Positions 2,301 through 63,995 of a stretch of DNA of 64,000 bases are shown here, piece after piece. The position numbers were made by a program, and so were the translations under genes. The stretch is from Bernardetia sp. OM2101. Its GTDB lineage: Bacteria > Bacteroidota > Bacteroidia > Cytophagales > Bernardetiaceae. The notes below the pieces were generated by a model, which worked only from the letters and a program-made list of their open reading frames with translations, did no database searches and had not been told where the DNA came from. The stretch covers positions 1,912,604 to 1,976,603 of the forward strand of contig NZ_CP170094.1 of assembly GCF_042180575.1 (NCBI RefSeq), read 5' to 3'. Numbering within the stretch: position 1 is the stretch's first letter; each line of letters begins with the position of its first letter.

Positions 2301-2864
2301 ATGAAATACATTTCCATTTTGAGAGGAATCAACGTAGGAGGAAAACGAAAAATTTTGATGAAAGATTTGAAAGAATTGTATCAAAACTTAGGTTTTCTGA
2401 ATATAGAAACCTATATCCAAAGTGGAAATGTAGTTTTTGATTCTGAGTTTAATTCAGATTTAGACAGAAGTGAAATTTCTACTAAGATAGAAAAAGCAAT
2501 TTTTGAGAAATATAATTTTGAAGTTCCTGTAATCATACGAACAAAAGAAGAATTAATTAATATTCAATCTTCAAATCCATTTATAAAAAATGAAGAAGAC
2601 AAAAAAGAATTAATCAATAATCTTCATCTGACTTTTTTGGAACATATTCCAACAACTGAAAATATAGAGAAAACAAAAGAAATTGAATCAAAGACAACAG
2701 ATAAATTTGAAATTACAGAAAATAATGTCTTTATTTTTTGTGAAGGAAAGTATCATACCTCAAAACTGACAAATAACTTTTTTGAGAAAAAATTAAAGAC
2801 AAAGGCAACAACAAGAAACTGGAAAACAATAGAAAAATTAACTGAATTAGTGATTAGTGATTAG
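2301..2864 (+). CDS. DUF1697 domain protein
   Basis: N-terminus MKYISILRGINVGGKRKILMKDLKELYQNLGF..YIQSGNVVF matches the DUF1697 signature. Confidence 0.75.
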   Translation: MKYISILRGINVGGKRKILMKDLKELYQNLGFLNIETYIQSGNVVFDSEFNSDLDRSEISTKIEKAIFEKYNFEVPVIIRTKEELINIQSSNPFIKNEEDKKELINNLHLTFLEHIPTTENIEKTKEIESKTTDKFEITENNVFIFCEGKYHTSKLTNNFFEKKLKTKATTRNWKTIEKLTELVISD

Positions 2865-2899
2865 TGATTAGTGATTAGTGATTAGTGATTAGTGATTAG
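2846..2899. repeat. Heptanucleotide microsatellite (TGATTAG)n, about 7 copies, overlapping the stop of the DUF1697 gene
   Basis: Perfect tandem tgattag units read directly; the first unit supplies the ...ISD* stop codon. Confidence 0.9.
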
Positions 2900-3029
2900 T
2901 TTCAAACGAGTAGGTTATTTTTTCGTTTCCATTAAAATCTAGTATTTTTGTGGCATTCTGTTACTTTTTAGATATAGCTGTATTTTTATAGTTGAATGAA
3001 TAGTAATTAAAATAAAATCCGATAATCTT

Positions 3030-3449
3030 ATGTTCAAAAAATCAGCACGCCTTCCCAAACACAAAAAATTTGAGTTTCAACCTCGCTTTTATAATCCAGA
3101 TAAAGAAGACTTAGACAAACGCAAACGCTGGGCAGAAGCCGAAGAACGATTAAAACAACTAGAAAAAGAGGAGGTAAAAGAAGAATTAAATGAACTTAGT
3201 AGCTACAATGAAGAACATTCTGTGTTAAGAGGTTCATTTGGAAGAGCAAAAGAAAAACGCAAAACATTATTTGGTAATATGTCAATCGTTGTTTTGATTG
3301 CTTTATTAGGTGGAGCAGCTTATATTTTTATAAATTTGGGGAGTAAAGGAGCTGATTATGGTTGGGAATTATATCTTGTTCTTTCTTTAATTCCACTTTA
3401 TATTTTATTTAGAATTCATGCTAATTCCAAAATTAAAAAAGAAGACTAA
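3030..3449 (+). CDS. Hypothetical protein with charged coiled-coil N-terminal part and one or two C-terminal TM helices
   Basis: ORF with KR/E-rich N-terminal half and hydrophobic C-terminal segment; no family recognised. Confidence 0.45.
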   Translation: MFKKSARLPKHKKFEFQPRFYNPDKEDLDKRKRWAEAEERLKQLEKEEVKEELNELSSYNEEHSVLRGSFGRAKEKRKTLFGNMSIVVLIALLGGAAYIFINLGSKGADYGWELYLVLSLIPLYILFRIHANSKIKKED

Positions 3450-15143: not shown

Positions 15144-16463
15144 CTATACCAATTCAGAAACAGGCAAAACATTTACAGTTAGATTGGAATTAGACAAATC
15201 AATATCTTTCAATTCTACTTCTTGAAGTGTATTAGGCAAAGAAACATTATAGGCTTGATTTACACGAACATAATTTTCTGTAAATCCAAAGATTTTGTCT
15301 TCTTTGACTTCATTTTCCCACAAAACTATCTTGGCTTTTCCTAATTGAGATTGGTAAAAATAATTTCGTTTTTTATCAGAAAGACTATGTAACATCTTCG
15401 AACGCTCGGCACGAACTTTTTTAGGAACTGCATTTTTCATATCAGCAGCCTTTGTATTTTGGCGTTCTGAATAAGTAAAAACATGCAAATAAGAAATATC
15501 TAAGCTATGCAGAAAATTATATGTTTCCATAAAATGTTCTTCACTTTCGCCTGGAAAACCAACAATTACATCGACACCAATACACGCATCAGGCATTAGA
15601 TTTTTAATTTTTTCTATTCTTTCACTATACAAACTCGTTTTATAACGACGACGCATAAAACGCAAAATCTCATCGCTACCCGACTGTAAAGGAATATGAA
15701 AATGAGGCACAAACCTTTTAGAATTAGCTACAAATTCGATAATTTCATCAGATAATAAATTAGGTTCGATAGACGAAATACGAAAGCGCTCAATTCCTTC
15801 TACTTTATCCAGTTCTTGTACAAGTTCGAAAAAAGTATGAACACGCTCATTGTTTATCAAGCCATAATCACCTGTATTTACACCTGTCAAGACAATTTCT
15901 TTTACTTTTGTAGCTGCAATTTCTCTTGTAGCTTTCAAAATATTTTCTACTGTATCACTTCTGCTATTTCCTCTAGCAAGTGGAATCGTACAAAAAGCAC
16001 AATTATAATCACAACCATCTTGAACTTTCAAAAATGTACGTGTACGGTCGCCGAATGAATAAGCTGTATTAAAATCAGTCGCTTGTGAAATTTCAGAAGC
16101 GCAAAGTTGAACAGTATCTTTTTGCTCAAAATCATTCAAAACTTCAAACAAACGGAATTTTTCGGCTGCTCCCAAAACGGCATCAACACCTTTTATAGTA
16201 GCAATTTCTTGTGGTTTGAGTTGAGCATAACAACCAATAATAATTACAAAAGAATTTGGCGATGTTTTTTTAGCTTGTTTTACAATCTGCTTACACTTTT
16301 TATCTGCGTTTTCTGTAACCGAACAGGTATTGATGACAAAAATATCTGGATTTTCAGCAAATTCGACACGCTCATAACCACGCTCTTCAAACTGACGGGC
16401 AATAGTTGAGGTTTCAGAAAAATTGAGTTTGCAACCCAAGGTGTAAAAAGCTACTTTACGCAT
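15144..16463 (-). CDS. mtaB: Radical-SAM tRNA methylthiotransferase, MtaB-like
   Basis: N-terminal MTTase domain (YTLGCKLNFSE), radical SAM CDYNCAFC (CxxxCxxC) and TRAM-like C-terminus, 439 aa. Confidence 0.7.
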   Translation of the reverse strand: MRKVAFYTLGCKLNFSETSTIARQFEERGYERVEFAENPDIFVINTCSVTENADKKCKQIVKQAKKTSPNSFVIIIGCYAQLKPQEIATIKGVDAVLGAAEKFRLFEVLNDFEQKDTVQLCASEISQATDFNTAYSFGDRTRTFLKVQDGCDYNCAFCTIPLARGNSRSDTVENILKATREIAATKVKEIVLTGVNTGDYGLINNERVHTFFELVQELDKVEGIERFRISSIEPNLLSDEIIEFVANSKRFVPHFHIPLQSGSDEILRFMRRRYKTSLYSERIEKIKNLMPDACIGVDVIVGFPGESEEHFMETYNFLHSLDISYLHVFTYSERQNTKAADMKNAVPKKVRAERSKMLHSLSDKKRNYFYQSQLGKAKIVLWENEVKEDKIFGFTENYVRVNQAYNVSLPNTLQEVELKDIDLSNSNLTVNVLPVSELV

Positions 16464-16492
16464 AAATTAATTACGAATTACGAATTACGAAT
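16464..16492. repeat. Short array of ATTACGA/TTCGTAA-type heptamers
   Basis: attacgaattacgaattacgaatt read directly; same family as 31931-32070, 55048-55198, 55560-55640 and 61620-61656. Confidence 0.8.
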
Positions 16493-16733
16493 TTGATGTA
16501 GTAATTATCTACAGTTCGTGTTCTTATTATTAAATTATTGTTCGTGTTTTAATGATAGCAACACCAACAAGTAAGAAAGTCTGATCTAGTTACAGCAAAG
16601 GTACGAAATAAAATAAAATTTGCATTTATGAAAAAATACACTTTTATTAGCTAGGCTAAACAAAAATGTAAAAACTGAACTTATTTTTCAAAGAATTAGT
16701 TTGATTTTTATAAACCTTTTAAGTCTGTAAAAT

Positions 16734-31558: not shown

Positions 31559-31930
31559 ATGGCAAAAATTCAAAACACATTCAAACATATTGAGGAAGAA
31601 AAAGAAATCAAAATTCCTACAAAAAGAGGCTTTTGGAGAAATCTAGCTGAGTGGGATTTTACCATTGACCAAGATTTTTTATTCCGAATAATGCCTTATG
31701 TTTTGTATGTTTCTTTTTTTGGAATTATCTATATTGCAAATCGTCATTATACAGAACGAGTAGTTAGAGAAGTTACTCAGCTTCGTCAAGAAGTAGAAGA
31801 ATATCAAATCGATTATCATGCTTTACAAACTCGTTATGTATATGATAGCAGAAGACAAGTAGTAGCTAAAAAAGCTGAACAATTAGGCTTAAAAGAAAGA
31901 GAAAAACCATTAGTAAGAATATCGGAATAG
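31559..31930 (+). CDS. ftsL: Putative cell-division protein FtsL (single TM, immediately upstream of ftsI)
   Basis: Small bitopic protein with one TM helix and coiled-coil region in the expected dcw-cluster position. Confidence 0.45.
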   Translation: MAKIQNTFKHIEEEKEIKIPTKRGFWRNLAEWDFTIDQDFLFRIMPYVLYVSFFGIIYIANRHYTERVVREVTQLRQEVEEYQIDYHALQTRYVYDSRRQVVAKKAEQLGLKEREKPLVRISE

Positions 31931-32070
31931 CCAATTACGAATTGTCAATTACGAATTACGATAAACTACTATTTCTATGCTAAATTTAGTAGTCGTAATT
32001 TTTAATTCATAGTTCGTAATTCGTAATCCGTAATTCGTAATTCGTAATCCGTAATTCGTAATTCGTAATT
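31931..32070. repeat. Array of TTCGTAA/TCCGTAA heptamer repeats with internal dyad symmetry between ftsL and ftsI
   Basis: ..caattacgaattacgataaactacta..tagtagtcgtaatttttaattc..gttcgtaattcgtaatccgtaattcgtaattcgtaatccgtaattcgtaattcgtaattg. Confidence 0.85.
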
Positions 32071-32075
32071 GATTT

Positions 32076-34202
32076 ATGGCAAAAACAGGAATAAGAAAAT
32101 ACATACTCGCTCGTGTCCGAATCGCTTTTTTGGTGGTTTCACTGATTGCCTTAGTGATTGTTTATAAAATGATGAACATTCAGATTGTAGAAGGCGAGCG
32201 TTGGAGCAGTAAAGCTAGAGGTGTAGAAATGCGTGATGTACAACCGACTAGAGGAAGCATTTTGGCAGATGATGGCAGTCTTTTGGCTACTTCTTTGCCT
32301 TTTTATCGTGTTGCTATTGACCCAACAGTGGCAGATAGCAGCATTTTTGAAGGTGGAATTGATTCTTTAGGAATGCTCTTATCTAAGTTTTATAAGGAAG
32401 AAGAGCCTAGTTATTATGTAAATATTTTAAGAGACTATCGTAAAAACAAAAAGAAATATTACGTAATTAGTAAAGAATTAATTGACCACGAAAACTATAA
32501 AAAACTATCTAAATTTCCCATTTTTAGAGAAGGTAGAAATAAAGGAGGCGTAATTTACGAACAAACCGACAGACGTTTTTTACCTTTTGGAGAACTTGCA
32601 AGACGTACTATTGGCTTTGTAACCGAAGAAGATACCACTCAATCCTTGAACGGTAGAGGATTGGAGTATAGTTTTAATAGTGAGTTGCAAGGTGTGGCAG
32701 GTGAGGCATTGTACGAACTTATTGCAGGTGGTTTTTGGAAGCCTGTTGATGATATGTCGCAAGTCAGACCCAAACCAGGGATTGATATTCAGACTACGAT
32801 TGATATAAATCTGCAAGATACAGTCCATCAGATTCTACAAAATGCACTTCGTCAGTATAAAGCAGAATATGGTTCAGTTATTTTAATGGAAGTAGCAACA
32901 GGAGAAATAAAGGCTCTTGTAAACTTGGGAATAAACTCAAACGGTTCGTATGTAGAAAACAATAATTATGCTGTCGGAGATATGGGACTTGCCGAACCTG
33001 GATCTACATTTAAGTTGATGTCTATGGCTGCACTTTTTGAAGATGAAGAAATTCCCATTTCATTATCAGATAGTGTCCAAACAGGTGATGGAGTTCATAA
33101 GTATTACGATGATGCAATTATGCGTGATGTGGCTGCGCTTGGAAAATTAAGTGTACAAGAAGTTTTTGAAAAGTCATCTAATGTTGGAATGTCGCTTTTG
33201 GTGTGGAAGTATTTCCGTAAAAATCCTGAAAAGTATTACGAATATCTCAAAAAATTTGGGCTTTCTCGTCCGTTAGGTTTTCAAATGGCAGGAGAAGCAC
33301 AGCCTTATATCAAATCTCCTTCTGACTCTTCGTGGAGTGGAAGTACACTTCCTTGGATGTCTATTGGTTATGAGCTTAAATTATCTCCTCTTCAAACACT
33401 TTCATTTTATAATACGGTTGCTAATAATGGAGTAATGGTTGAGCCAATTATTGTAAGCCAGACAAGACAAGCAGGAAAAACACTAAAAAGTTTTGATTCT
33501 AAAGTATTAAACAAACAAACACTTTCAGAAAAAACAGTCAAAATATTACAAACAATGCTTCGTGGTGCAGTAGAAAATGGAACTGCCAAAAAAATTGACA
33601 CAAAAATCTATCAAATTGCAGGAAAAACAGGAACTGCCGAAAAGGTCAGAAATGGAGAATATACCGAAGACCACTATACTTCTTTTGCTGGTTATTTTCC
33701 TGCTGACAATCCAAAATACTCGTGTATTGTAGTCATTGACGACCCAAAAACAGATAAGCGTTATGCTTCTGAAGTAGCTGCACCTATTTTTCGTAAGGTT
33801 TCTGATGTAGTTTATCAACGTTATTTGCACAAGCCTCTTTCAGAAGTTGAGCCAACAGCAACTGATAGTTTACACATGCGTTTGCCTTTTATTCGTGCTG
33901 GTTATCGTCCAGATTTGGATTTGGTATGTTCTCAATTAGGAATCAAAACAGAAAACCAAACGGTTCAGCAATGGGTAAAAACGAAAGTTGCAACCGATAC
34001 AGTTATGTGGATAGACAATCAAGCTGCTGCAAGTCTTGTTCCTGATGTGCGTGGAATGCGCCTTCGTGATGCACTTTATTTGTTGGAAAACTTAGGAATG
34101 AAAGTCGCCTTTGAAGGAAAAGGAAGAATTGTATCACAATCTTTAAATCCTAATGTAGCCATTCCAAAAGGAAAAACTATTTATTTGAAATTGAAGGAAT
34201 AG
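32076..34202 (+). CDS. ftsI: Penicillin-binding protein (FtsI/PBP3-like class B transpeptidase) with C-terminal PASTA-like domain
   Basis: STFK (SxxK), SSN and KTGTA active-site motifs; N-terminal TM anchor. Confidence 0.85.
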   Translation: MAKTGIRKYILARVRIAFLVVSLIALVIVYKMMNIQIVEGERWSSKARGVEMRDVQPTRGSILADDGSLLATSLPFYRVAIDPTVADSSIFEGGIDSLGMLLSKFYKEEEPSYYVNILRDYRKNKKKYYVISKELIDHENYKKLSKFPIFREGRNKGGVIYEQTDRRFLPFGELARRTIGFVTEEDTTQSLNGRGLEYSFNSELQGVAGEALYELIAGGFWKPVDDMSQVRPKPGIDIQTTIDINLQDTVHQILQNALRQYKAEYGSVILMEVATGEIKALVNLGINSNGSYVENNNYAVGDMGLAEPGSTFKLMSMAALFEDEEIPISLSDSVQTGDGVHKYYDDAIMRDVAALGKLSVQEVFEKSSNVGMSLLVWKYFRKNPEKYYEYLKKFGLSRPLGFQMAGEAQPYIKSPSDSSWSGSTLPWMSIGYELKLSPLQTLSFYNTVANNGVMVEPIIVSQTRQAGKTLKSFDSKVLNKQTLSEKTVKILQTMLRGAVENGTAKKIDTKIYQIAGKTGTAEKVRNGEYTEDHYTSFAGYFPADNPKYSCIVVIDDPKTDKRYASEVAAPIFRKVSDVVYQRYLHKPLSEVEPTATDSLHMRLPFIRAGYRPDLDLVCSQLGIKTENQTVQQWVKTKVATDTVMWIDNQAAASLVPDVRGMRLRDALYLLENLGMKVAFEGKGRIVSQSLNPNVAIPKGKTIYLKLKE

Positions 34203-54804: not shown

Positions 54805-55047
54805 ATGAAATTACCAGTTATAAAACAATTAGTAGAAACTCATTCGTTAGAAGACCTCAAAAAAGCTGAAATGGCTATGGAAGAAGGAGAAAACCCTACT
54901 TTTGAAGTAAAAGGCGAAGACGAAGGCGAACAATTTACACACGTAATTGCAGCCGTTTGGGTAAAAGAAAAAATGGAAAAAGATGGCGTTGATGCTCGTG
55001 CTGCAATGCGTGAATATACACAGAAAGTAAGAAATTCAATAAGTTAA
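54805..55047 (+). CDS. Small hypothetical protein (80 aa, acidic)
   Basis: ORF with reasonable codon usage; no family recognised. Confidence 0.4.
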   Translation: MKLPVIKQLVETHSLEDLKKAEMAMEEGENPTFEVKGEDEGEQFTHVIAAVWVKEKMEKDGVDARAAMREYTQKVRNSIS

Positions 55048-55198
55048 ATTACGAATTTTCAATTACGACCTGCTAAAGCAGCGCAGCTAATTACGAATTG
55101 AAATACAAAAATAAACCTAGTATATTTATCATATATAAAAACAAAAGCTTATTGAGTATTCATTATTTTACTCTCGTAATTTTTAATTCGTAATTGAT
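55048..55198. repeat. TTCGTAA-family repeat region ending in the conserved motif cgtaatttttaattcgtaattga directly before the start codon
   Basis: aattacgaattttcaattacgacctgctaaagcagcgcagctaattacgaattg ... ctcgtaatttttaattcgtaattgatATG. Confidence 0.8.
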
Positions 55199-55552
55199 AT
55201 GAAAGAAGACAACATTATTCAGAAAAAGAGCTTTGATTTTGCTATCCGAATAGTGAATGCTTATAAGTTTTTGATTTCTAAACAAGAATATGTTTTGTCA
55301 AAACAATTATTACGTAGTGGAACTTCAATAGGTGCAAACGTAGAAGAGGCTATAGGTGGATATTCTAGGACAGATTTTGGTTTTAAATTATCCATTGCAT
55401 ACAAAGAAGCTAGAGAAACACTTTATTGGATTAAACTCTTAGAAGCAACTGACTATCTTTCAGAAGAAATGAGTAAAAGTCTGATTCAAGATGCAGAAGA
55501 AATCTGCAAAATAATTGGTAAAATACAAACTTCTTTAAAGAAAAATCAGTAA
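55199..55552 (+). CDS. Four-helix-bundle protein (23S rRNA intervening-sequence protein / Avd-like family)
   Basis: ..KKSFDFAIRIVNAYKFL...LLRSGTSIGANVEEA.. is the hallmark of the TIGR02436-type four-helix-bundle family. Confidence 0.75.
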   Translation: MKEDNIIQKKSFDFAIRIVNAYKFLISKQEYVLSKQLLRSGTSIGANVEEAIGGYSRTDFGFKLSIAYKEARETLYWIKLLEATDYLSEEMSKSLIQDAEEICKIIGKIQTSLKKNQ

Positions 55553-55559
55553 TAAATAA

Positions 55560-55640
55560 AACAGCGAAGCTAGTTAAGCTATAGAATTTCGTAATTAAAA
55601 ATTCGTAATCCGTAATTGACCAATTCGTAATTAAATTAAG
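55560..55640. repeat. TTCGTAA-family repeat region (cgtaattaaaaattcgtaatccgtaattgaccaattcgtaatt)
   Basis: Read directly; variant of the conserved roughly 30-nt motif. Confidence 0.8.
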
Positions 55641-56883: not shown

Positions 56884-56974
56884 TATATTTACCGAACGGT
56901 TCGCTTTGAGTGAACTGTTCGGTATTTTTTTGTATCTTAGATAAAGAGTTTTATAACTTAAAAGATAAAATAAA

Positions 56975-60945: not shown

Positions 60946-61305
60946 ATGGCACTAACAGAACAAGAAATTAAAGAAATCATTGAAAATGAAATCATTGTAG
61001 ATGCTTATACTGATGAAGAAGCAGAAACAGGCTGGGCAACATACATGGAAGACAATATCAATTTTCCATTTGAAGCAGAATATTTAGTAAGGAGAGCATC
61101 TAAACCAAACGAATGGAAAAAAGTCAAAATTATAGAGAATTATACAAACTCTTCAAATTATGAAGGAGGAGAGTTTTATTTATCAGCTCTACTTGAAGAT
61201 GTGGATATGGTTATTCCAGTAGAAATAAGTGAACTAAGAAATGTAGAAGCAGATGAAGATACATTAGATACTTTTCAAATATGGGAATACAGAAATAAAT
61301 ATTAA
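60946..61305 (+). CDS. Small strongly acidic hypothetical protein (119 aa)
   Basis: 29 D/E against 10 K/R counted in the translation; downstream of and co-directional with the RT. Confidence 0.5.
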   Translation: MALTEQEIKEIIENEIIVDAYTDEEAETGWATYMEDNINFPFEAEYLVRRASKPNEWKKVKIIENYTNSSNYEGGEFYLSALLEDVDMVIPVEISELRNVEADEDTLDTFQIWEYRNKY

Positions 61306-61550: not shown

Positions 61551-61619
61551 TTTTAAACTTATTTTATCTAAAAAATATGACGAAGAAAAATAAAAAACGA
61601 ACGGTTCACACAAAAGCAA

Positions 61620-61656
61620 ACCGTTCGTAATTTTTAATTCGTAATCCGTAATTGTA
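61620..61656. repeat. TTCGTAA-family motif copy (cgtaatttttaattcgtaatccgtaattg)
   Basis: Fourth occurrence of the conserved roughly 30-nt motif. Confidence 0.8.
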
Positions 61657-61658
61657 TC

Positions 61659-63995
61659 TTATTCTCTCAATAAAGAAACCCAACCTTTCAAAATCAAAAC
61701 TTCATCAGTTGGATTCAAACGATTAAAAGTAACTTTGACTTGGAAATAATACATTCCAGAAGGCATTTCTTTTCCGTTGTTATTTTCTCCATTCCAATCA
61801 ATAAAGACATTATTATCTTCATCGCTTGTAGTTTCAAAAACCAAATCTTCCCAACGGCTATAAATTTTGGTTTCTACATTTTTGACAAAAGCAGGACAGT
61901 CTAATGCTCTAAATGTATCATTTATTCCGTCGCCATTTGGTGTAAATACATTTGGTAGCGCATAATTTGGACAGTTATCATTACATACTTGATTACTAAA
62001 TGTACTCTCATTTCCAGACGCATCAAGAGCTGTAACAACATAACAACCTGCCACAGAACGAACTTGTTCGTGTGTATAAGTCGTGTCAGTAGTATTTATC
62101 AAAAGCTGCAATGAATCATTAATTTGGGCTTTGAAGTATAAATTATAACTACTCACTTCCAAATCACAATCAGGCGAATAATCATTTTGCCATCTCAATT
62201 CATTTCTAAAAAGAGAATCACTACAATAAATTGGATCTTCAAAATTAATGGTTTCACAAATCAAAGAGTCTAAAAACAAGGTTGTAGGCGAACAAGGAGG
62301 CGTTTCGTCAAGTGGAACAATACATACTTTTTGAGACTTGTTCAAAAGTGGTTCTGGCAAACCTTCTTTATTGTAACTTCCTTGTGTTGTAACAAAATAA
62401 CAATATTCTACCTTGTCTAAAAGCTCTGTATCAGTATAAGAAAACGAGCCACTAAAGACATTTATACTATCCAAAAGAACAAAATCAGTTCCATCAGCAT
62501 CCGTTTGACGATAAATATAATGTTGTGGAAAACGTGAATCAGTATTGTTCCAAGGCACTTCTGCACGCCAACTTAAAGTAGCTGCATTTACTAAAGGAGT
62601 TGCATTCAAACGAACAGAACTTGCCACAGCCGAAGAATCTACCAAATTATCATTTGAATAAAAAAGAACTCTATAATTATAAACTTCTTCTTCAGTATTC
62701 AGATTTGTGTCTCTAAAAGTAGTGTCATTTTCAGCAAAACGTTCTCCTAATTGCGTATAATTCTGAGTTCCAGAGAAACCATCTGCACGGAAAAGTTCAT
62801 ATTCATAAGGTCTTGGAAAATCTTCTTCTATGAGGTCTTGGGGTTTTGTCCATTCCACTTGCATTTCTCCATTTTCGGTGTCTGTTTCTTCTACACTTAC
62901 TTTTGTAATATACGGTGCATTGGTTGGAATAATTACACAAACTTCGTCAGAAACATAACTTTCTCCTCCTGCTGGATTTGGGAATCTTGCAAAAATACGG
63001 TAGCAATATGTTTTTCCTCGTTCTAATCCTTCTCCATTATTATCATCTAAATAGAATAGATTACCAATTTCATTTGTTCCAATTTGTGTATAACCTGTAT
63101 AAGCAGGCAAACCTGTTTCACATGTATCAGGGTTAAACTCAAAAGAGCCTACTCTTCGCCAAATAGTCATTTCACTAGCATTCGGACACTGATAAGAAAA
63201 CCAACTCAATGAAATGCTATTATCAACTGTATTGACATCAGCAATGAGCGTATCAGGTTTTGGACCTACAACTCGGATTTGCCACGTTTTTAAATCTACT
63301 AATTTGTTGCTGCTGGGTTGAGGTTGGTCTTCTGCTTTAAAAGTAACAGCATAAGGTTGCAAACGTACATCTTCACAGACTGTTTGCCAATCAAAAACAC
63401 CCTTTTCTTCTCCATTTGGAGGCTGAATATTCAAAACATTAAAATTCGCATAATTTCTTGGTGGAACAGATTGTAATACATTTGCATCTCTAAATAATGC
63501 ACTATAAGCAAAAAGTTTAACAAAATCTTCATCAGGGTCTGTTCCTGTAATTGTATCTCTTAAAAATGCTCCTGCCGTAACACAGGTATCTCTAGGAATT
63601 TCTAAAATAGGACGTTTATTTGGATTATCTCTTACAATAATCTGCATATCACGGTTTACTTGTCCAATCAAAATACCTTCTCGCCATTCTTGAACAATAA
63701 AAGCTACATTAAACTGCCCTGTTCGCCCAGGTGTATTCCAAACCAAATCTCCTGTAATGGGGTCAAGAGTAGCAATAGTTGCTCCTCCCTCTTCACGTTC
63801 TCCCCCAAATGAAGGGTCATCTAACAGACTAAAACCCTCAACTGGCGTATTTATATCACGTTTGGGAGTAACAAAAATATATGCTAAACTATCACCATCA
63901 GCATCATACGCCCCTGGATTATGAATAAATTTTTCACCTACACGAGCAAAGTCAATCGGTGGAACAAGCAAAATAGGTGACCTATTTAATCCCAA
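61659..63995 (-). CDS. Large cell-surface protein with T9SS/gliding-motility-type C-terminal sorting domain; the 5' end lies beyond the window
   Basis: C-terminal ..YALPNVFTPNGDGINDTF.. plus repeated beta-rich modules; the ORF is open to the window edge. Confidence 0.7.
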   Translation of the reverse strand: MGLNRSPILLVPPIDFARVGEKFIHNPGAYDADGDSLAYIFVTPKRDINTPVEGFSLLDDPSFGGEREEGGATIATLDPITGDLVWNTPGRTGQFNVAFIVQEWREGILIGQVNRDMQIIVRDNPNKRPILEIPRDTCVTAGAFLRDTITGTDPDEDFVKLFAYSALFRDANVLQSVPPRNYANFNVLNIQPPNGEEKGVFDWQTVCEDVRLQPYAVTFKAEDQPQPSSNKLVDLKTWQIRVVGPKPDTLIADVNTVDNSISLSWFSYQCPNASEMTIWRRVGSFEFNPDTCETGLPAYTGYTQIGTNEIGNLFYLDDNNGEGLERGKTYCYRIFARFPNPAGGESYVSDEVCVIIPTNAPYITKVSVEETDTENGEMQVEWTKPQDLIEEDFPRPYEYELFRADGFSGTQNYTQLGERFAENDTTFRDTNLNTEEEVYNYRVLFYSNDNLVDSSAVASSVRLNATPLVNAATLSWRAEVPWNNTDSRFPQHYIYRQTDADGTDFVLLDSINVFSGSFSYTDTELLDKVEYCYFVTTQGSYNKEGLPEPLLNKSQKVCIVPLDETPPCSPTTLFLDSLICETINFEDPIYCSDSLFRNELRWQNDYSPDCDLEVSSYNLYFKAQINDSLQLLINTTDTTYTHEQVRSVAGCYVVTALDASGNESTFSNQVCNDNCPNYALPNVFTPNGDGINDTFRALDCPAFVKNVETKIYSRWEDLVFETTSDEDNNVFIDWNGENNNGKEMPSGMYYFQVKVTFNRLNPTDEVLILKGWVSLLRE

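What the first reader, a model, noticed from the sequence alone, without database searches (positions are those of the whole stretch)
31931..32070. Species-specific TTCGTAA/TCCGTAA heptamer repeat family with a conserved roughly 30-nt motif recurring at five or more intergenic sites
Arrays of the heptamer occur at 16464-16492, 31931-32070, 55048-55198, 55560-55640 and 61620-61656. Four sites share the longer motif cgtaatttttaattcgtaat(c)cgtaattg, in two cases ending directly at a start codon (ftsI at 32076; four-helix-bundle gene at 55199). The 31.9-kb copy has internal dyad symmetry. Placement immediately 5' of start codons suggests a promoter, leader or regulatory element, or a repeat-mediated recombination hotspot.
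Basis: seen in the sequence. Interest (0 to 1): 0.5.

Follow-up and report, generated by a model that had tools for sequence, protein, structure and literature searches.

The report
Heptamer arms of four-helix-bundle gene cassettes
The TTCGTAA repeats are real but not species-specific: they are the inverted-repeat arms of a widespread small element, related to the intervening sequences of ribosomal RNA genes, whose complete form carries one four-helix-bundle protein gene, and this link may explain where many puzzling bacterial heptamer repeats come from.

Summary
TTCGTAA occurs 30 times against 11 expected, and 19 copies lie in five intergenic clusters at the stated coordinates. The long motif is itself four heptamers in register (CGTAATT|TTTAATT|CGTAATC|CGTAATT).

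"Species-specific" is wrong. The same motif occurs in many Bacteroidota, in Nostoc, and in contigs labelled Patescibacteria, Planctomycetota, Acidobacteriota and Desulfobulbia, and in viral contigs.

The arrays have a fixed architecture. An AATTACG arm follows a host stop codon, then a variable inner segment, then a CGTAATT arm ending just before the next gene. That inner segment is short (9-125 nt) or holds a four-helix-bundle gene (PF05635, "23S rRNA intervening-sequence protein"), as at 55199-55552.

In a sample chosen by protein alone, 79% of such genes had flanking inverted heptamer arms, against 2.7% of control genes. Arm copy number varies in 7-nt steps between strains. Bernardetia litoralis lacks the cassette at the orthologous site.

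Best reading: selfish, IVS-like stem-loop elements in mRNA spacers, not a conserved promoter or regulator. RNase III cleavage of the stem is inferred from Coxiella and untested here. How the element moves is unknown.

The parts
16469..16493 (-). Solo arm. On the minus strand it reads TTCGTAA x3.6 (CGTAATT orientation), with its outer end 5 nt upstream of the mtaB start codon (16461-16463).
   Evidence: mtaB is identified by TIGR01579. No inverted partner arm was found nearby.
31933..31960 (+). Left arm of a gene-less palindromic element: AATTACG|AATTGTC|AATTACG|AATTACG. It starts 2 nt after the ftsL stop codon (31928-31930).
   Evidence: It pairs with the right arm in the predicted fold. ftsL = PF19579.
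31961..31993 (+). Inner loop of the ftsL-ftsI element, containing a small hairpin (ACTACTA...TAGTAGT).
   Evidence: The loop sequence is unrelated to that of the same element in relative L210.
31994..32070 (+). Right arm: 11 heptamer units (CGTAATT, TTTAATT, CATAGTT, then CGTAATT/CGTAATC x8). It ends 5 nt before the ftsI ATG at 32076. TAA occurs in all three frames.
   Evidence: (11.1 copies, score 114).
55047..55099 (+). Left-arm region of the full-length element: AATTACG units at 55047, 55061 and 55089. The first unit overlaps the DUF6952 stop codon (55045-55047).
   Evidence: The same left arm at the same stop codon occurs in relatives L120 and L250 and is absent in B. litoralis L251.
55100..55173 (+). 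Variable inner spacer between the left arm and the forward arm. It is unalignable with the corresponding spacer of close relatives.
   Evidence: window, L120 and L250 share the arms and a 93-97% identical protein but have different spacers.
55174..55195 (+). Forward arm CGTAATT|TTTAATT|CGTAATT, ending 3 nt before the four-helix-bundle ATG.
   Evidence: It pairs with 55047-55067 in the fold (z = -2.6).
55199..55552 (+). Cargo gene: a four-helix-bundle protein of 117 aa (PF05635 23S_rRNA_IVP / TIGR02436).
   Evidence: Pfam E = 5e-28 and NCBIfam E = 9e-30. PDB 2RLD E = 4e-32. At least 7995 homologues. dN/dS about 0.11.
55590..55632 (+). Right arm downstream of the cargo gene: CGTAATT|AAAAATT|CGTAATC|CGTAATT, then gaccaatt, then CGTAATT. 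It stops at the conserved mnmA leader (gtttttaacggactttgaatccgttt).
   Evidence: The boundary is defined by comparison with the empty site in B. litoralis.
61626..61653 (+). Solo arm CGTAATT|TTTAATT|CGTAATC|CGTAATT. Its outer end lies 5 nt from the stop codon (61659-61661) of the convergent T9SS-sorted gene, so in that gene's sense the stop is followed by AATTACG units.
   Evidence: This is the commonest arrangement elsewhere (42 of 61 arrays within 10 nt of an opposite-strand stop).
61597..61628 (.). G+C-rich hairpin adjoining the inner end of the 61.6-kb arm. It is terminator-like on the minus strand and is followed by TAATTTTTAATT on the plus strand.
   Evidence: z = -3.3; 13-bp stem followed by TTTTTATTTT.

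Best explanation
The heptamer arrays are the two inverted arms of a small palindromic insertion element. It is related to the intervening sequences (IVS) of 23S rRNA genes. Its full-length form carries one gene for a four-helix-bundle protein (PF05635/TIGR02436, the 'IVS protein', Avd-like).

Architecture (shown). A host gene's stop codon is followed by [AATTACG]n, then an inner segment, then [CGTAATT]n, then the next gene's start (or a convergent gene's stop). The inner segment is either short and variable or is the 4HB gene.

Copies in the window:
- One full-length copy (55047-55632).
- One gene-less hairpin copy between ftsL and ftsI (31933-32070).
- Two solo arms (16469-16493 and 61626-61653).

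Other points that are shown:
- The arms grow and shrink by replication slippage in 7-nt steps.
- The elements come and go between sister species.
- The cassette occurs with near-identical arms in distant phyla.

Inferred steps:
- The element is transcribed as part of the host operon, and the arms pair into a long stem. RNase III probably cuts this stem, as mapped for the heptamer-repeat stem of the Coxiella IVS. That would separate the flanking cistrons.
- The polarity makes the element tolerable in tight operon spacers. The entering arm has no stop codon in any frame, and the leaving arm has TAA in all three frames within 21 nt, a few nt before the downstream ATG. Any translation inside the element ends just before the next start.
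- The arrays extend until they meet constrained sequence, which would explain why they abut start and stop codons.

Unknown: the mechanism of movement. Recombination between arrays is the simplest candidate.
For: 1. Ten of 119 motif-selected loci from other genomes carry a close 4HB homologue (E 1e-33 to 1e-51) directly bracketed by AATTACGAATTAAAAATTACGAATTACG ... CGTAATTCGTAATTTTTAATTCGTAATT.
2. In 80 loci selected by protein only, 50 of 63 4HB genes have a flanking inverted repeat scoring at least 12. The control figures are 0 of 19 and 12 of 447 genes. Flank self-identity at period 7 is 0.71, against about 0.44 for periods 4-11.
3. Polarity is fixed.
   - The upstream arm is AATTACG in 23 loci and AATTCGT in 4.
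   - The downstream arm is the CGTAATT orientation in 22 loci and the reverse in 1.
   - Paired arms are AATTACG..CGTAATT in 33 cases and the reverse order in 2.
   - Inner lengths are bimodal: 9-125 nt, or 346-397 nt where the gene is present.
4. Other 4HB genes carry other units whose left and right arms are complementary (AAGAATT/AATTCTT, AATTAGG/CCTAATT, GATAACT/CAGTTAT). Arm type follows protein phylogeny: the nearest neighbour has the same type in 35 of 44 cases, p = 0.0005.
5. 25 of 77 4HB ORFs end AAT-TCN-TAA inside the first unit of the right arm.
6. Outer ends abut host genes: 42 of 61 lie within 10 nt of a stop and 22 of 51 within 10 nt of a start. Inner ends do not. About 95% of copies are intergenic.
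7. Insertion polymorphism: B. litoralis has an empty DUF6952-mnmA site. The ftsL-ftsI spacer differs between relatives.
8. Copy-number differences of 7 and 28 nt occur between strains.
9. Predicted stems: -39.1 kcal/mol with z = -5.1, and z = -2.6.
10. Published precedent: in the Coxiella 23S rRNA IVS, the S23p (= PF05635) ORF is preceded by strain-variable tandem heptamers (GACAGAT). The RNase III 5' cut maps to the first repeat (PMC4990558).
11. dN/dS of about 0.11 shows the cargo is a working gene.
Against: - Only about 8% of motif-selected arrays have a 4HB gene beside them, and 87 of 120 scored as solo arms by a strict criterion. Most copies may therefore have arisen without the gene.
- Inner segments of gene-less copies share no sequence. 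They are not copies of one master element as in a MITE.
- The arms show no sign of selection on sense-strand RNA pairing. G.U-type and A.C-type mismatches are 48 against 48. The data cannot distinguish a DNA-level role for the arms from an RNA-level one.
- No RNA data or RNase III data exist for this organism.
- Viral contigs carry the arrays without 4HB genes and in the AATTACG->ATG orientation.
- Enrichment over composition-matched control patterns in viral contigs is only 2.5- to 6-fold.
- The raw genome hit count (at least 119, truncated) is not far above a generous chance estimate for AT-rich genomes.
- Some phylum labels come from metagenome bins that may be contaminated. However, isolate genomes of Chitinophaga, Ferruginibacter and Nostoc, and loci with G+C of at least 0.55, are included.
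- The protein-selected sample covers only relatives with 44-75% identity to the window protein.
Confidence: 0.7

Rival explanations
1. The arrays are ordinary simple-sequence repeats made by replication slippage at AT-rich spacers. The link with the four-helix-bundle gene is secondary: the gene merely lands in, or survives in, such arrays.
For: - Copy number changes in 7-nt steps.
- Different units occupy the same spacer in sister strains.
- Composition-matched control heptamer patterns also occur in viral contigs (4 and 10 hits).
- Most arrays have no gene beside them.
- Heptamers are the commonest long repeat unit in bacteria (Mrazek 2007, cited in PMC4679880).
Against: - Slippage alone predicts no fixed inside/outside polarity, yet the arrangement is 33 against 2.
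- It predicts no inverted partner arms.
- It predicts no reuse of the same 20-28 nt sequence in genomes with 55-64% G+C.
- It predicts no co-variation of arm type with protein phylogeny.
- It predicts no ORF ends built into the first arm unit.
Confidence: 0.12
2. The arrays are cis-acting translation or leader elements. In Shine-Dalgarno-poor phyla, heptamer repeats directly upstream of start codons would bind a factor such as ribosomal protein S1, a cold-shock protein or a CsrA-like protein. This was proposed for TAACTGA repeats.
For: - Three of the five window copies end 3-5 nt before an ATG.
- 22 of 51 arrays elsewhere end within 10 nt of a start.
- In viral contigs the arrays again lie directly before ATGs.
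- The same pattern and the same taxa, including Flexibacter (= Bernardetia) litoralis, are described in PMC4679880.
Against: - Both orientations occur before start codons, so the RNA sequence offered to a binding factor differs.
- The same end abuts stop codons of convergent genes even more often (42 of 61).
- The element is absent from the orthologous leader in B. litoralis and is replaced by another unit in a 97%-identical relative.
- In paired copies, part of the arm is sequestered in a stem.
Confidence: 0.1
3. The arrays are recombination linkers. Identical arms at many gene boundaries would let cassettes (the 4HB gene or other inner segments) be swapped by homologous or slipped-strand recombination. 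This is compatible with the best explanation and may be its mobility mechanism.
For: - Window, L120 and L250 share the arms and a 93-97% identical 4HB gene but have unrelated inner spacers.
- In L121-L128, about 70 nt including arrays and the 3' end of the upstream gene is duplicated on both sides of the 4HB gene.
- Direct forward arrays flank the window gene on both sides.
Against: - No recombinant junction or excised circle has been observed.
- The arms are only 20-77 nt long, which is short for RecA-dependent exchange.
- This does not explain entry into genomes that lack the arrays.
Confidence: 0.06
4. The arrays are promoters or transcription-factor binding sites for the downstream genes.
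For: They sit upstream of genes, and three heptamers span two helical turns. Heptamer direct repeats bind regulators in other systems, such as the TTTTGAT repeats of the ctxAB promoter (listed).
Against: - No TTTG-N17-21-TAnnTTTG match overlaps an array.
- ftsI and the 4HB gene lie inside co-directional gene strings with 3-5 nt between array and ATG, which leaves no room for a transcription start and leader.
- The arrays also lie after stop codons between convergent genes.
- They are not conserved in sister species.
Confidence: 0.02

Closest known systems
23S rRNA intervening sequences (IVS) carrying an S23p / PF05635 ORF (Leptospira, Coxiella burnetii, Xanthomonas-type). For Coxiella: PMC4990558.
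   Same: - The cargo belongs to the same protein family.
- The ORF sits in the loop of a stem made by terminal inverted repeats.
- Tandem heptameric repeats lie next to the ORF start, with strain-variable copy number.
- Distribution is sporadic and looks horizontally transferred.
- ORF-less versions exist.
   Different: - The element here is not in an rRNA helix. It lies in spacers between protein-coding genes (ftsL-ftsI, DUF6952-mnmA).
- The arms are made entirely of heptamer arrays with a different unit (CGTAATT rather than GACAGAT).
- The ORF is under strong purifying selection (dN/dS about 0.11), whereas the Coxiella ORF is decaying.
- RNase III cleavage is untested here.
TAACTGA heptamer direct repeats upstream of start codons in Beggiatoaceae, Cyanobacteria and five Bacteroidetes including Flexibacter litoralis (MacGregor 2015, PMC4679880), and the cyanobacterial STRR heptamers.
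   Same: - Tandem 7-nt units, usually 2-6 copies.
- Intergenic, within a few nt of start codons.
- Indels in 7-nt increments between strains.
- The same patchy set of phyla, and horizontal transfer suspected.
- One divergent 4HB gene (L108, 6680-7048) is flanked by GATAACT/CAGTTAT arms, which is the TAACTGA unit.
   Different: - The unit sequence differs.
- That paper reports almost only direct repeats (one indirect) and proposes a translational regulator.
- The passages I read (abstract and sections 3 and 10) make no link to PF05635 genes or to inverted arms.
REP / REPIN sequences with their RAYT transposase.
   Same: Short palindromic repeats are dispersed in intergenic spacers. A single associated gene is itself bracketed by inverted copies of the repeat. 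Gene-less doublets greatly outnumber gene-bearing copies.
   Different: The associated gene encodes a four-helix bundle with no HUH/Y1 motif. The repeats are tandem heptamer arrays rather than one imperfect palindrome. No transposition chemistry is known for PF05635.
Avd, the accessory variability determinant of diversity-generating retroelements.
   Same: Same Pfam family (PF05635). It is a pentameric, basic four-helix-bundle barrel that binds nucleic acid (from memory of Alayyoubi 2013; PF05635 is mentioned in the DGR review PMC10053308).
   Different: I saw no reverse-transcriptase gene, template repeat or variable repeat next to the window copy or in the loci I inspected. This was not searched for systematically.

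Membership tests
IVS-type element (S23p/PF05635 ORF inside an RNase III-cleaved stem) | Encodes a PF05635 / TIGR02436 protein. | tested here: met
   55199-55552: Pfam E = 5e-28, NCBIfam E = 9e-30, PDB 2RLD E = 4e-32. The gene-less copies correspond to ORF-less IVSs.
IVS-type element (S23p/PF05635 ORF inside an RNase III-cleaved stem) | Terminal inverted repeats able to form a stem that encloses the ORF or loop. | tested here: met
   Folds of -39.1 kcal/mol (z = -5.1) and z = -2.6. 50 of 63 4HB genes against 12 of 447 controls have flanking inverted repeats.
IVS-type element (S23p/PF05635 ORF inside an RNase III-cleaved stem) | Inserted at the tip of a 23S (or 16S) rRNA helix. | tested here: not met
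   All window copies lie between protein-coding genes. There are no Rfam hits, rRNA included, anywhere in the window.
IVS-type element (S23p/PF05635 ORF inside an RNase III-cleaved stem) | Excised from the transcript by RNase III without religation. | not testable with these tools
   This needs RNA 5'/3' end mapping in wild type and an rnc mutant. The only support is analogy with Coxiella (PMC4990558). The mismatch pattern gave no RNA-strand signal (48:48).
IVS-type element (S23p/PF05635 ORF inside an RNase III-cleaved stem) | Tandem heptamer repeats beside the ORF, with strain-variable number. | tested here: met
   L121-L128 differ by 7 and 28 nt. Flank periodicity peaks at 7 nt.
Start-codon-proximal heptamer direct repeats (TAACTGA type, MacGregor 2015) | Tandem 7-nt units, intergenic, in forward orientation within several nt of a start codon. 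| tested here: met
   This holds for three copies, ending 5 nt before the mtaB ATG, 5 nt before the ftsI ATG and 3 nt before the 4HB ATG. The arm at 55590-55632 is 48 nt from the mnmA ATG. The arm at 61626-61653 faces a stop codon.
Start-codon-proximal heptamer direct repeats (TAACTGA type, MacGregor 2015) | The unit is TAACTGA. | tested here: not met
   The unit here is CGTAATT/TTCGTAA. TAACTGA-like units were seen only in other loci (L108, L209).
REP/REPIN-RAYT | The associated gene encodes an HUH/Y1 (RAYT) transposase. | tested here: not met
   The associated gene matches only PF05635.
MITE (non-autonomous transposon) | Many near-identical copies with a conserved internal sequence between the terminal inverted repeats. 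| tested here: not met
   Inner segments are unrelated between window copies, and even between orthologous copies in sister strains.
MITE (non-autonomous transposon) | Target-site duplication. | tested here: inconclusive
   The base after the outer AATT is G in 36% of arrays, giving CAATT...AATTG. The repetitive arms hide any short duplication.
Contingency locus (phase-variable simple-sequence repeat) | A change in repeat number switches a reading frame or promoter spacing. | not tested
   Copy number does vary. The arrays are outside host ORFs, and no promoter was found. The effect on expression is unknown.
Intrinsic terminator | A G+C-rich hairpin followed by a U-run. | tested here: inconclusive
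   The hairpin at 61597-61628 qualifies on the minus strand. Over 127 arrays, however, the inner flank is not significantly more structured than the outer flank.

The most novel reading that the evidence does not exclude
Four-helix-bundle (PF05635) proteins and heptamer-repeat arrays form one system. Each protein subfamily would travel with, and perhaps recognise, its own heptamer unit, as RAYTs do with REPs. The long-unexplained intergenic heptamer repeats would then be the arms and relics of these cassettes. That includes the cyanobacterial STRRs, the TAACTGA repeats of Beggiatoaceae, and the arrays described here in Bacteroidota and in contigs labelled Patescibacteria. This would give the uncharacterised 'IVS protein' family a role, and give IVSs outside rRNA a definition.
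Probability: 0.25. Interest if true: 0.8.

Novelty: new variant of a known kind. Interest (0 to 1): 0.6.

Why it matters
Two puzzles have sat apart in the literature. The first is why some bacterial phyla are full of tandem heptamer repeats placed right at gene boundaries. The second is what the very abundant four-helix-bundle 'IVS protein' genes are and how they spread.

The evidence here ties them together. In a protein-selected sample, four in five of these genes sit between inverted heptamer arrays of fixed polarity. The arrays in this window are such arms, with or without the gene.

If the link is general, three things follow:
- It gives a concrete, testable origin for heptamer repeats.
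- It extends the IVS concept from rRNA to mRNA spacers inside essential operons such as ftsL-ftsI.
- It points to experiments on RNase III processing, on 4HB binding to the repeats, and on cassette exchange.

For annotation, it warns against reading these arrays as species-specific regulatory motifs.

Tried and rejected
1. Exact-protein look-ups for the window's FtsL, 4HB and DUF6952 proteins found nothing. The source genome is not indexed. I identified the organism through a 100%-identical DUF6952 from Bernardetia sp. OM2101.
2. Rfam gave no hit in the window.
3. The promoter idea failed. No Bacteroidetes consensus lies at any array. The sigma-70 scan is uninformative in this AT-rich DNA (49 found against 36 expected).
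4. I tested whether a variable hairpin always precedes the long motif. It does in the window. It is not significant over 127 arrays elsewhere: median MFE -3.7 against -3.8, and z <= -2 in 16 against 9, p = 0.07. I dropped it as a defining feature.
5. RNA-level versus DNA-level selection on the arms: G.U against A.C mismatches are 48:48, so there is no discrimination.
6. The MITE model is rejected because inner segments are unrelated.
7. Defence-system or phage-family membership of the 4HB protein: no hit in PADLOC or PHROGs.
8. Phage carriage as the vector of the cassette: arrays are present in 25 viral contigs, but none lies next to a 4HB gene. Enrichment over control patterns is modest.
9. 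Literature searches for the unit sequence, and for a published link between heptamers and PF05635, found nothing apart from the Coxiella IVS description.
10. The raw hit count alone is not decisive evidence. The chance expectation reaches about 0.1-0.3 per Gb in AT-rich genomes, so the argument rests on structure, not on counts.
Full report
**1. The observation**

The heptamer TTCGTAA (reverse complement TTACGAA) occurs 30 times in the 64-kb window. Dinucleotide-preserving shuffles give 11.2 +/- 3.4, and none of 100 reaches 30. The remaining 11 are isolated, which is the chance level. TCCGTAA alone is not enriched (8 against 4.2).

Tandem Repeats Finder reports period-7 arrays at these positions:
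- 16469-16493
- 31933-31961
- 31993-32070 (11.1 copies)
- 55174-55195
- 55588-55617
- 61624-61653

The looser pattern AATTNNNAATTNNNAATT occurs 7 times against 0.25 expected, only at these sites. All clusters are intergenic.

Flanking genes are ftsL and ftsI, mtaB, a DUF6952 gene, mnmA, a T9SS-sorted protein and a CcbP-like gene. The window is 31.5% G+C. Its DUF6952 protein is 100% identical to one from Bernardetia sp. OM2101.

**2. Not species-specific**

I scanned one genome per bacterial species for CGTAATTWWWAATTCGTAAT. They include:
- Many orders of Bacteroidota, with isolates of Chitinophaga and Ferruginibacter.
- Nostoc and Stigonema.
- Metagenome-assembled genomes labelled Saccharibacteria/Patescibacteria, Planctomycetota, Acidobacteriota, Desulfobulbia and Gammaproteobacteria.

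The hit loci span 25-64% G+C, and 13 are at least 50% G+C. At 50% G+C the chance expectation is about 0.015 per Gb.

Raw counts alone are not decisive. In AT-rich genomes the expectation rises to 0.1-0.3 per Gb, and some bin labels may be wrong. In viral contigs the pattern has 25 hits against 4 and 10 for two composition-matched controls. The argument therefore rests on structure.

**3. Anatomy across genomes**

Of 133 motif instances in those loci, about 95% are intergenic. Of the 132 distinct arrays, most have 4-5 units.

The 3' end of the CGTAATT-oriented array is an outer end. It lies within 10 nt of a same-strand start codon in 22 of 51 cases. It lies within 10 nt of an opposite-strand stop codon in 42 of 61 cases (median 5 nt). 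The 5' end faces inward, at a median of 67-87 nt from the next gene.

A partner arm of AATTACG units lies upstream in 33 arrays. The reverse order (CGTAATT...AATTACG) occurs only twice. Inner distances are bimodal: 9-125 nt in 24 cases, and 346-397 nt in 8 cases.

The element is therefore: stop | [AATTACG]n - inner segment - [CGTAATT]n | start, or a convergent stop. The window copies fit this exactly:
- **ftsL-ftsI.** TAG, cc, four left units, a 33-nt loop with a hairpin, eleven right units, gattt, ATG. The predicted stem is -39.1 kcal/mol with z = -5.1.
- **DUF6952-mnmA.** The left arm overlaps the stop codon, and the right arms flank the inserted gene (fold z = -2.6).
- **61.6 kb.** This arm lies 5 nt from the stop of the convergent gene, next to a terminator-like hairpin.
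- **16.5 kb.** This arm ends 5 nt before the mtaB ATG on the minus strand.

One consequence follows from the sequence itself. (CGTAATT)n has TAA in all three frames every 21 nt, and (AATTACG)n has no stop codon in any frame.

**4. The cargo gene**

The longer class of inner segment (346-397 nt) is a gene.

[quoted passage not shown] Its closest solved structure is 2RLD, deposited with five chains.
- Ten of the 119 motif-selected loci hold a close homologue directly between AATTACGAATTAAAAATTACGAATTACG and CGTAATTCGTAATTTTTAATTCGTAATT.
- I took the reverse direction with a protein-pattern scan of metagenomes. It returned 80 loci chosen without regard to DNA repeats, at 44-75% identity to the window protein.
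- Of 63 genes with full flanks, 50 (79%) have a flanking inverted repeat scoring at least 12. The figures for neighbouring genes are 0 of 19, and for a larger control 12 of 447 (2.7%).
- Flank self-similarity peaks sharply at period 7: 0.71 against about 0.44.
- Polarity relative to the gene is fixed. The upstream arm is AATTACG 23:4, and the downstream arm is the CGTAATT orientation 22:1.
- Other members carry other units, complementary between left and right:
  - AAGAATT/AATTCTT
  - AATTAGG/CCTAATT
  - AATTATG/CATAATT
  - GATAACT/CAGTTAT, which is the TAACTGA unit
- Arm type follows protein phylogeny. The nearest neighbour has the same type in 35 of 44 cases, permutation p = 0.0005.
- In 25 of 77 genes the ORF ends AAT-TCN-TAA, so its last codons are the first unit of the right arm. 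The unit variants CGT/CTT/CCT/CAT differ at the synonymous site of that serine codon.
- The protein is under purifying selection, with dN/dS about 0.11. The family is very large: at least 7995 homologues, and the top 120 are all at least 69% identical.

**5. Dynamics**

- Eight strain-level contigs carrying an identical 4HB protein differ in their arrays by exactly 7 and 28 nt.
- Bernardetia sp. ABR2-2B, a metagenomic relative (L120) and the window share the cassette at the same place. Their proteins are 93-97% identical, with dS 0.16-0.31. The spacer between the arms is unalignable.
- B. litoralis DSM 6794 has an empty site. About 100 nt of unrelated hairpins lie between DUF6952 and the conserved mnmA leader, and the window's right arm stops exactly at that leader.
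- Between ftsL and ftsI, a relative with 85% identical FtsL has the same kind of element with another loop and other copy numbers. A relative with 97% identical FtsL has four TTCTAAA/C units instead.

These are fast-turnover insertions, not conserved regulatory sequence.

**6. What is known**

Warrier et al. (PMC4990558) describe the Coxiella 23S rRNA IVS. It holds an S23p (PF05635) ORF in the loop of an inverted-repeat stem. Strain-variable tandem heptamers (GACAGAT) precede the ORF, and the RNase III 5' cut maps to the first repeat. The authors cite the older suggestions that IVSs are transposition remnants or mobile elements.

MacGregor (PMC4679880) describes TAACTGA direct repeats just upstream of start codons. 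They occur in Beggiatoaceae, Cyanobacteria and five Bacteroidetes, including Flexibacter (= Bernardetia) litoralis. Horizontal transfer was suspected and no mechanism was found.

Zhang et al. (PMC3936711) note PF05635 genes wedged inside cas operons.

My searches found no paper connecting PF05635 genes with heptamer arrays outside rRNA, and none mentioning this unit. The library covers only open-access papers and bioRxiv.

**7. Mechanism**

Shown:
- The architecture and its polarity.
- The cargo gene.
- 7-nt copy-number change.
- Presence/absence polymorphism.
- Cross-phylum distribution.
- The predicted stems.

Inferred:
- The arms pair in the operon transcript and are cut by RNase III, as in rRNA IVSs.
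- The triple-frame stops a few nt before the next ATG keep downstream translation intact.
- Arrays expand until they meet constrained sequence.
- Movement is by recombination between arrays.

Against an RNA-only view, arm mismatches show no G.U excess on the sense strand (48:48). Stem formation alone also does not explain the 33:2 arrangement bias. That bias fits an element with defined ends.

The hairpin next to the motif is a local feature of the window, not a general one.

**8. Verdict**

The repeats are real. The 'species-specific regulatory motif' reading is not supported.

They are best described as the arms of IVS-like four-helix-bundle gene cassettes and their gene-less derivatives, sitting in mRNA spacers. 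This is a new variant of known kinds: rRNA IVSs and start-proximal heptamer repeats.

The general link between the two is the interesting part, and it needs a genome-wide census and RNA and protein experiments. Confidence in the identity of the element is about 0.7. Confidence in RNase III processing is lower, about 0.35. The mobility mechanism is open.

Noticed in passing
window 2846-2900: A perfect ATTAGTG x7.9 tandem array (score 110) overlaps the last codons and stop of ORF 2301-2864. It is a second heptamer family in this genome, with no inverted partner nearby.
   Followed up: no
window 56890-56924 and 61597-61628: Two terminator-like hairpins share the core CGAACGGTT...AACCGTTCG. One lies after mnmA and one beside the 61.6-kb heptamer arm. 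They may form a small hairpin repeat family.
   Followed up: no
window 60946-61305: This gene matches PF11535 (CcbP), a calcium-binding protein family that I associate with cyanobacteria (from memory), yet here it is in a Bernardetia genome. This fits earlier suggestions of gene exchange between these groups (PMC4679880).
   Followed up: no
L209 70-700 (relative with 97% identical FtsL): ACTGGTA/ACTGATA/ACTGTTT heptamers lie directly before the ftsL ATG, and TTCTAAA/TTCTAAC x4 before the ftsI ATG. Neither is present in the window. Arrays of different unit occupy the same spacers in sister strains.
   Followed up: partly
L121-L128, about 2400-3180: About 70 nt is duplicated on both sides of the 4HB gene. 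The duplicated stretch includes the 3' end of the upstream N6_Mtase/Methylase_S gene and the heptamer arrays. This suggests insertion by duplication or recombination within an array.
   Followed up: partly
L211-L235 (viral contigs): The same arrays occur in 25 viral contigs, mostly as AATTACG units ending 0-10 nt before the ATG of genes that are not 4HB. This is the opposite orientation from that seen before ftsI and mtaB.
   Followed up: partly
L250 3171-3300: In Bernardetia sp. ABR2-2B the right arm of the orthologous cassette has decayed to TGTAATT units (CG changed to TG). This shows point-mutation decay of the arms as well as slippage.
   Followed up: no
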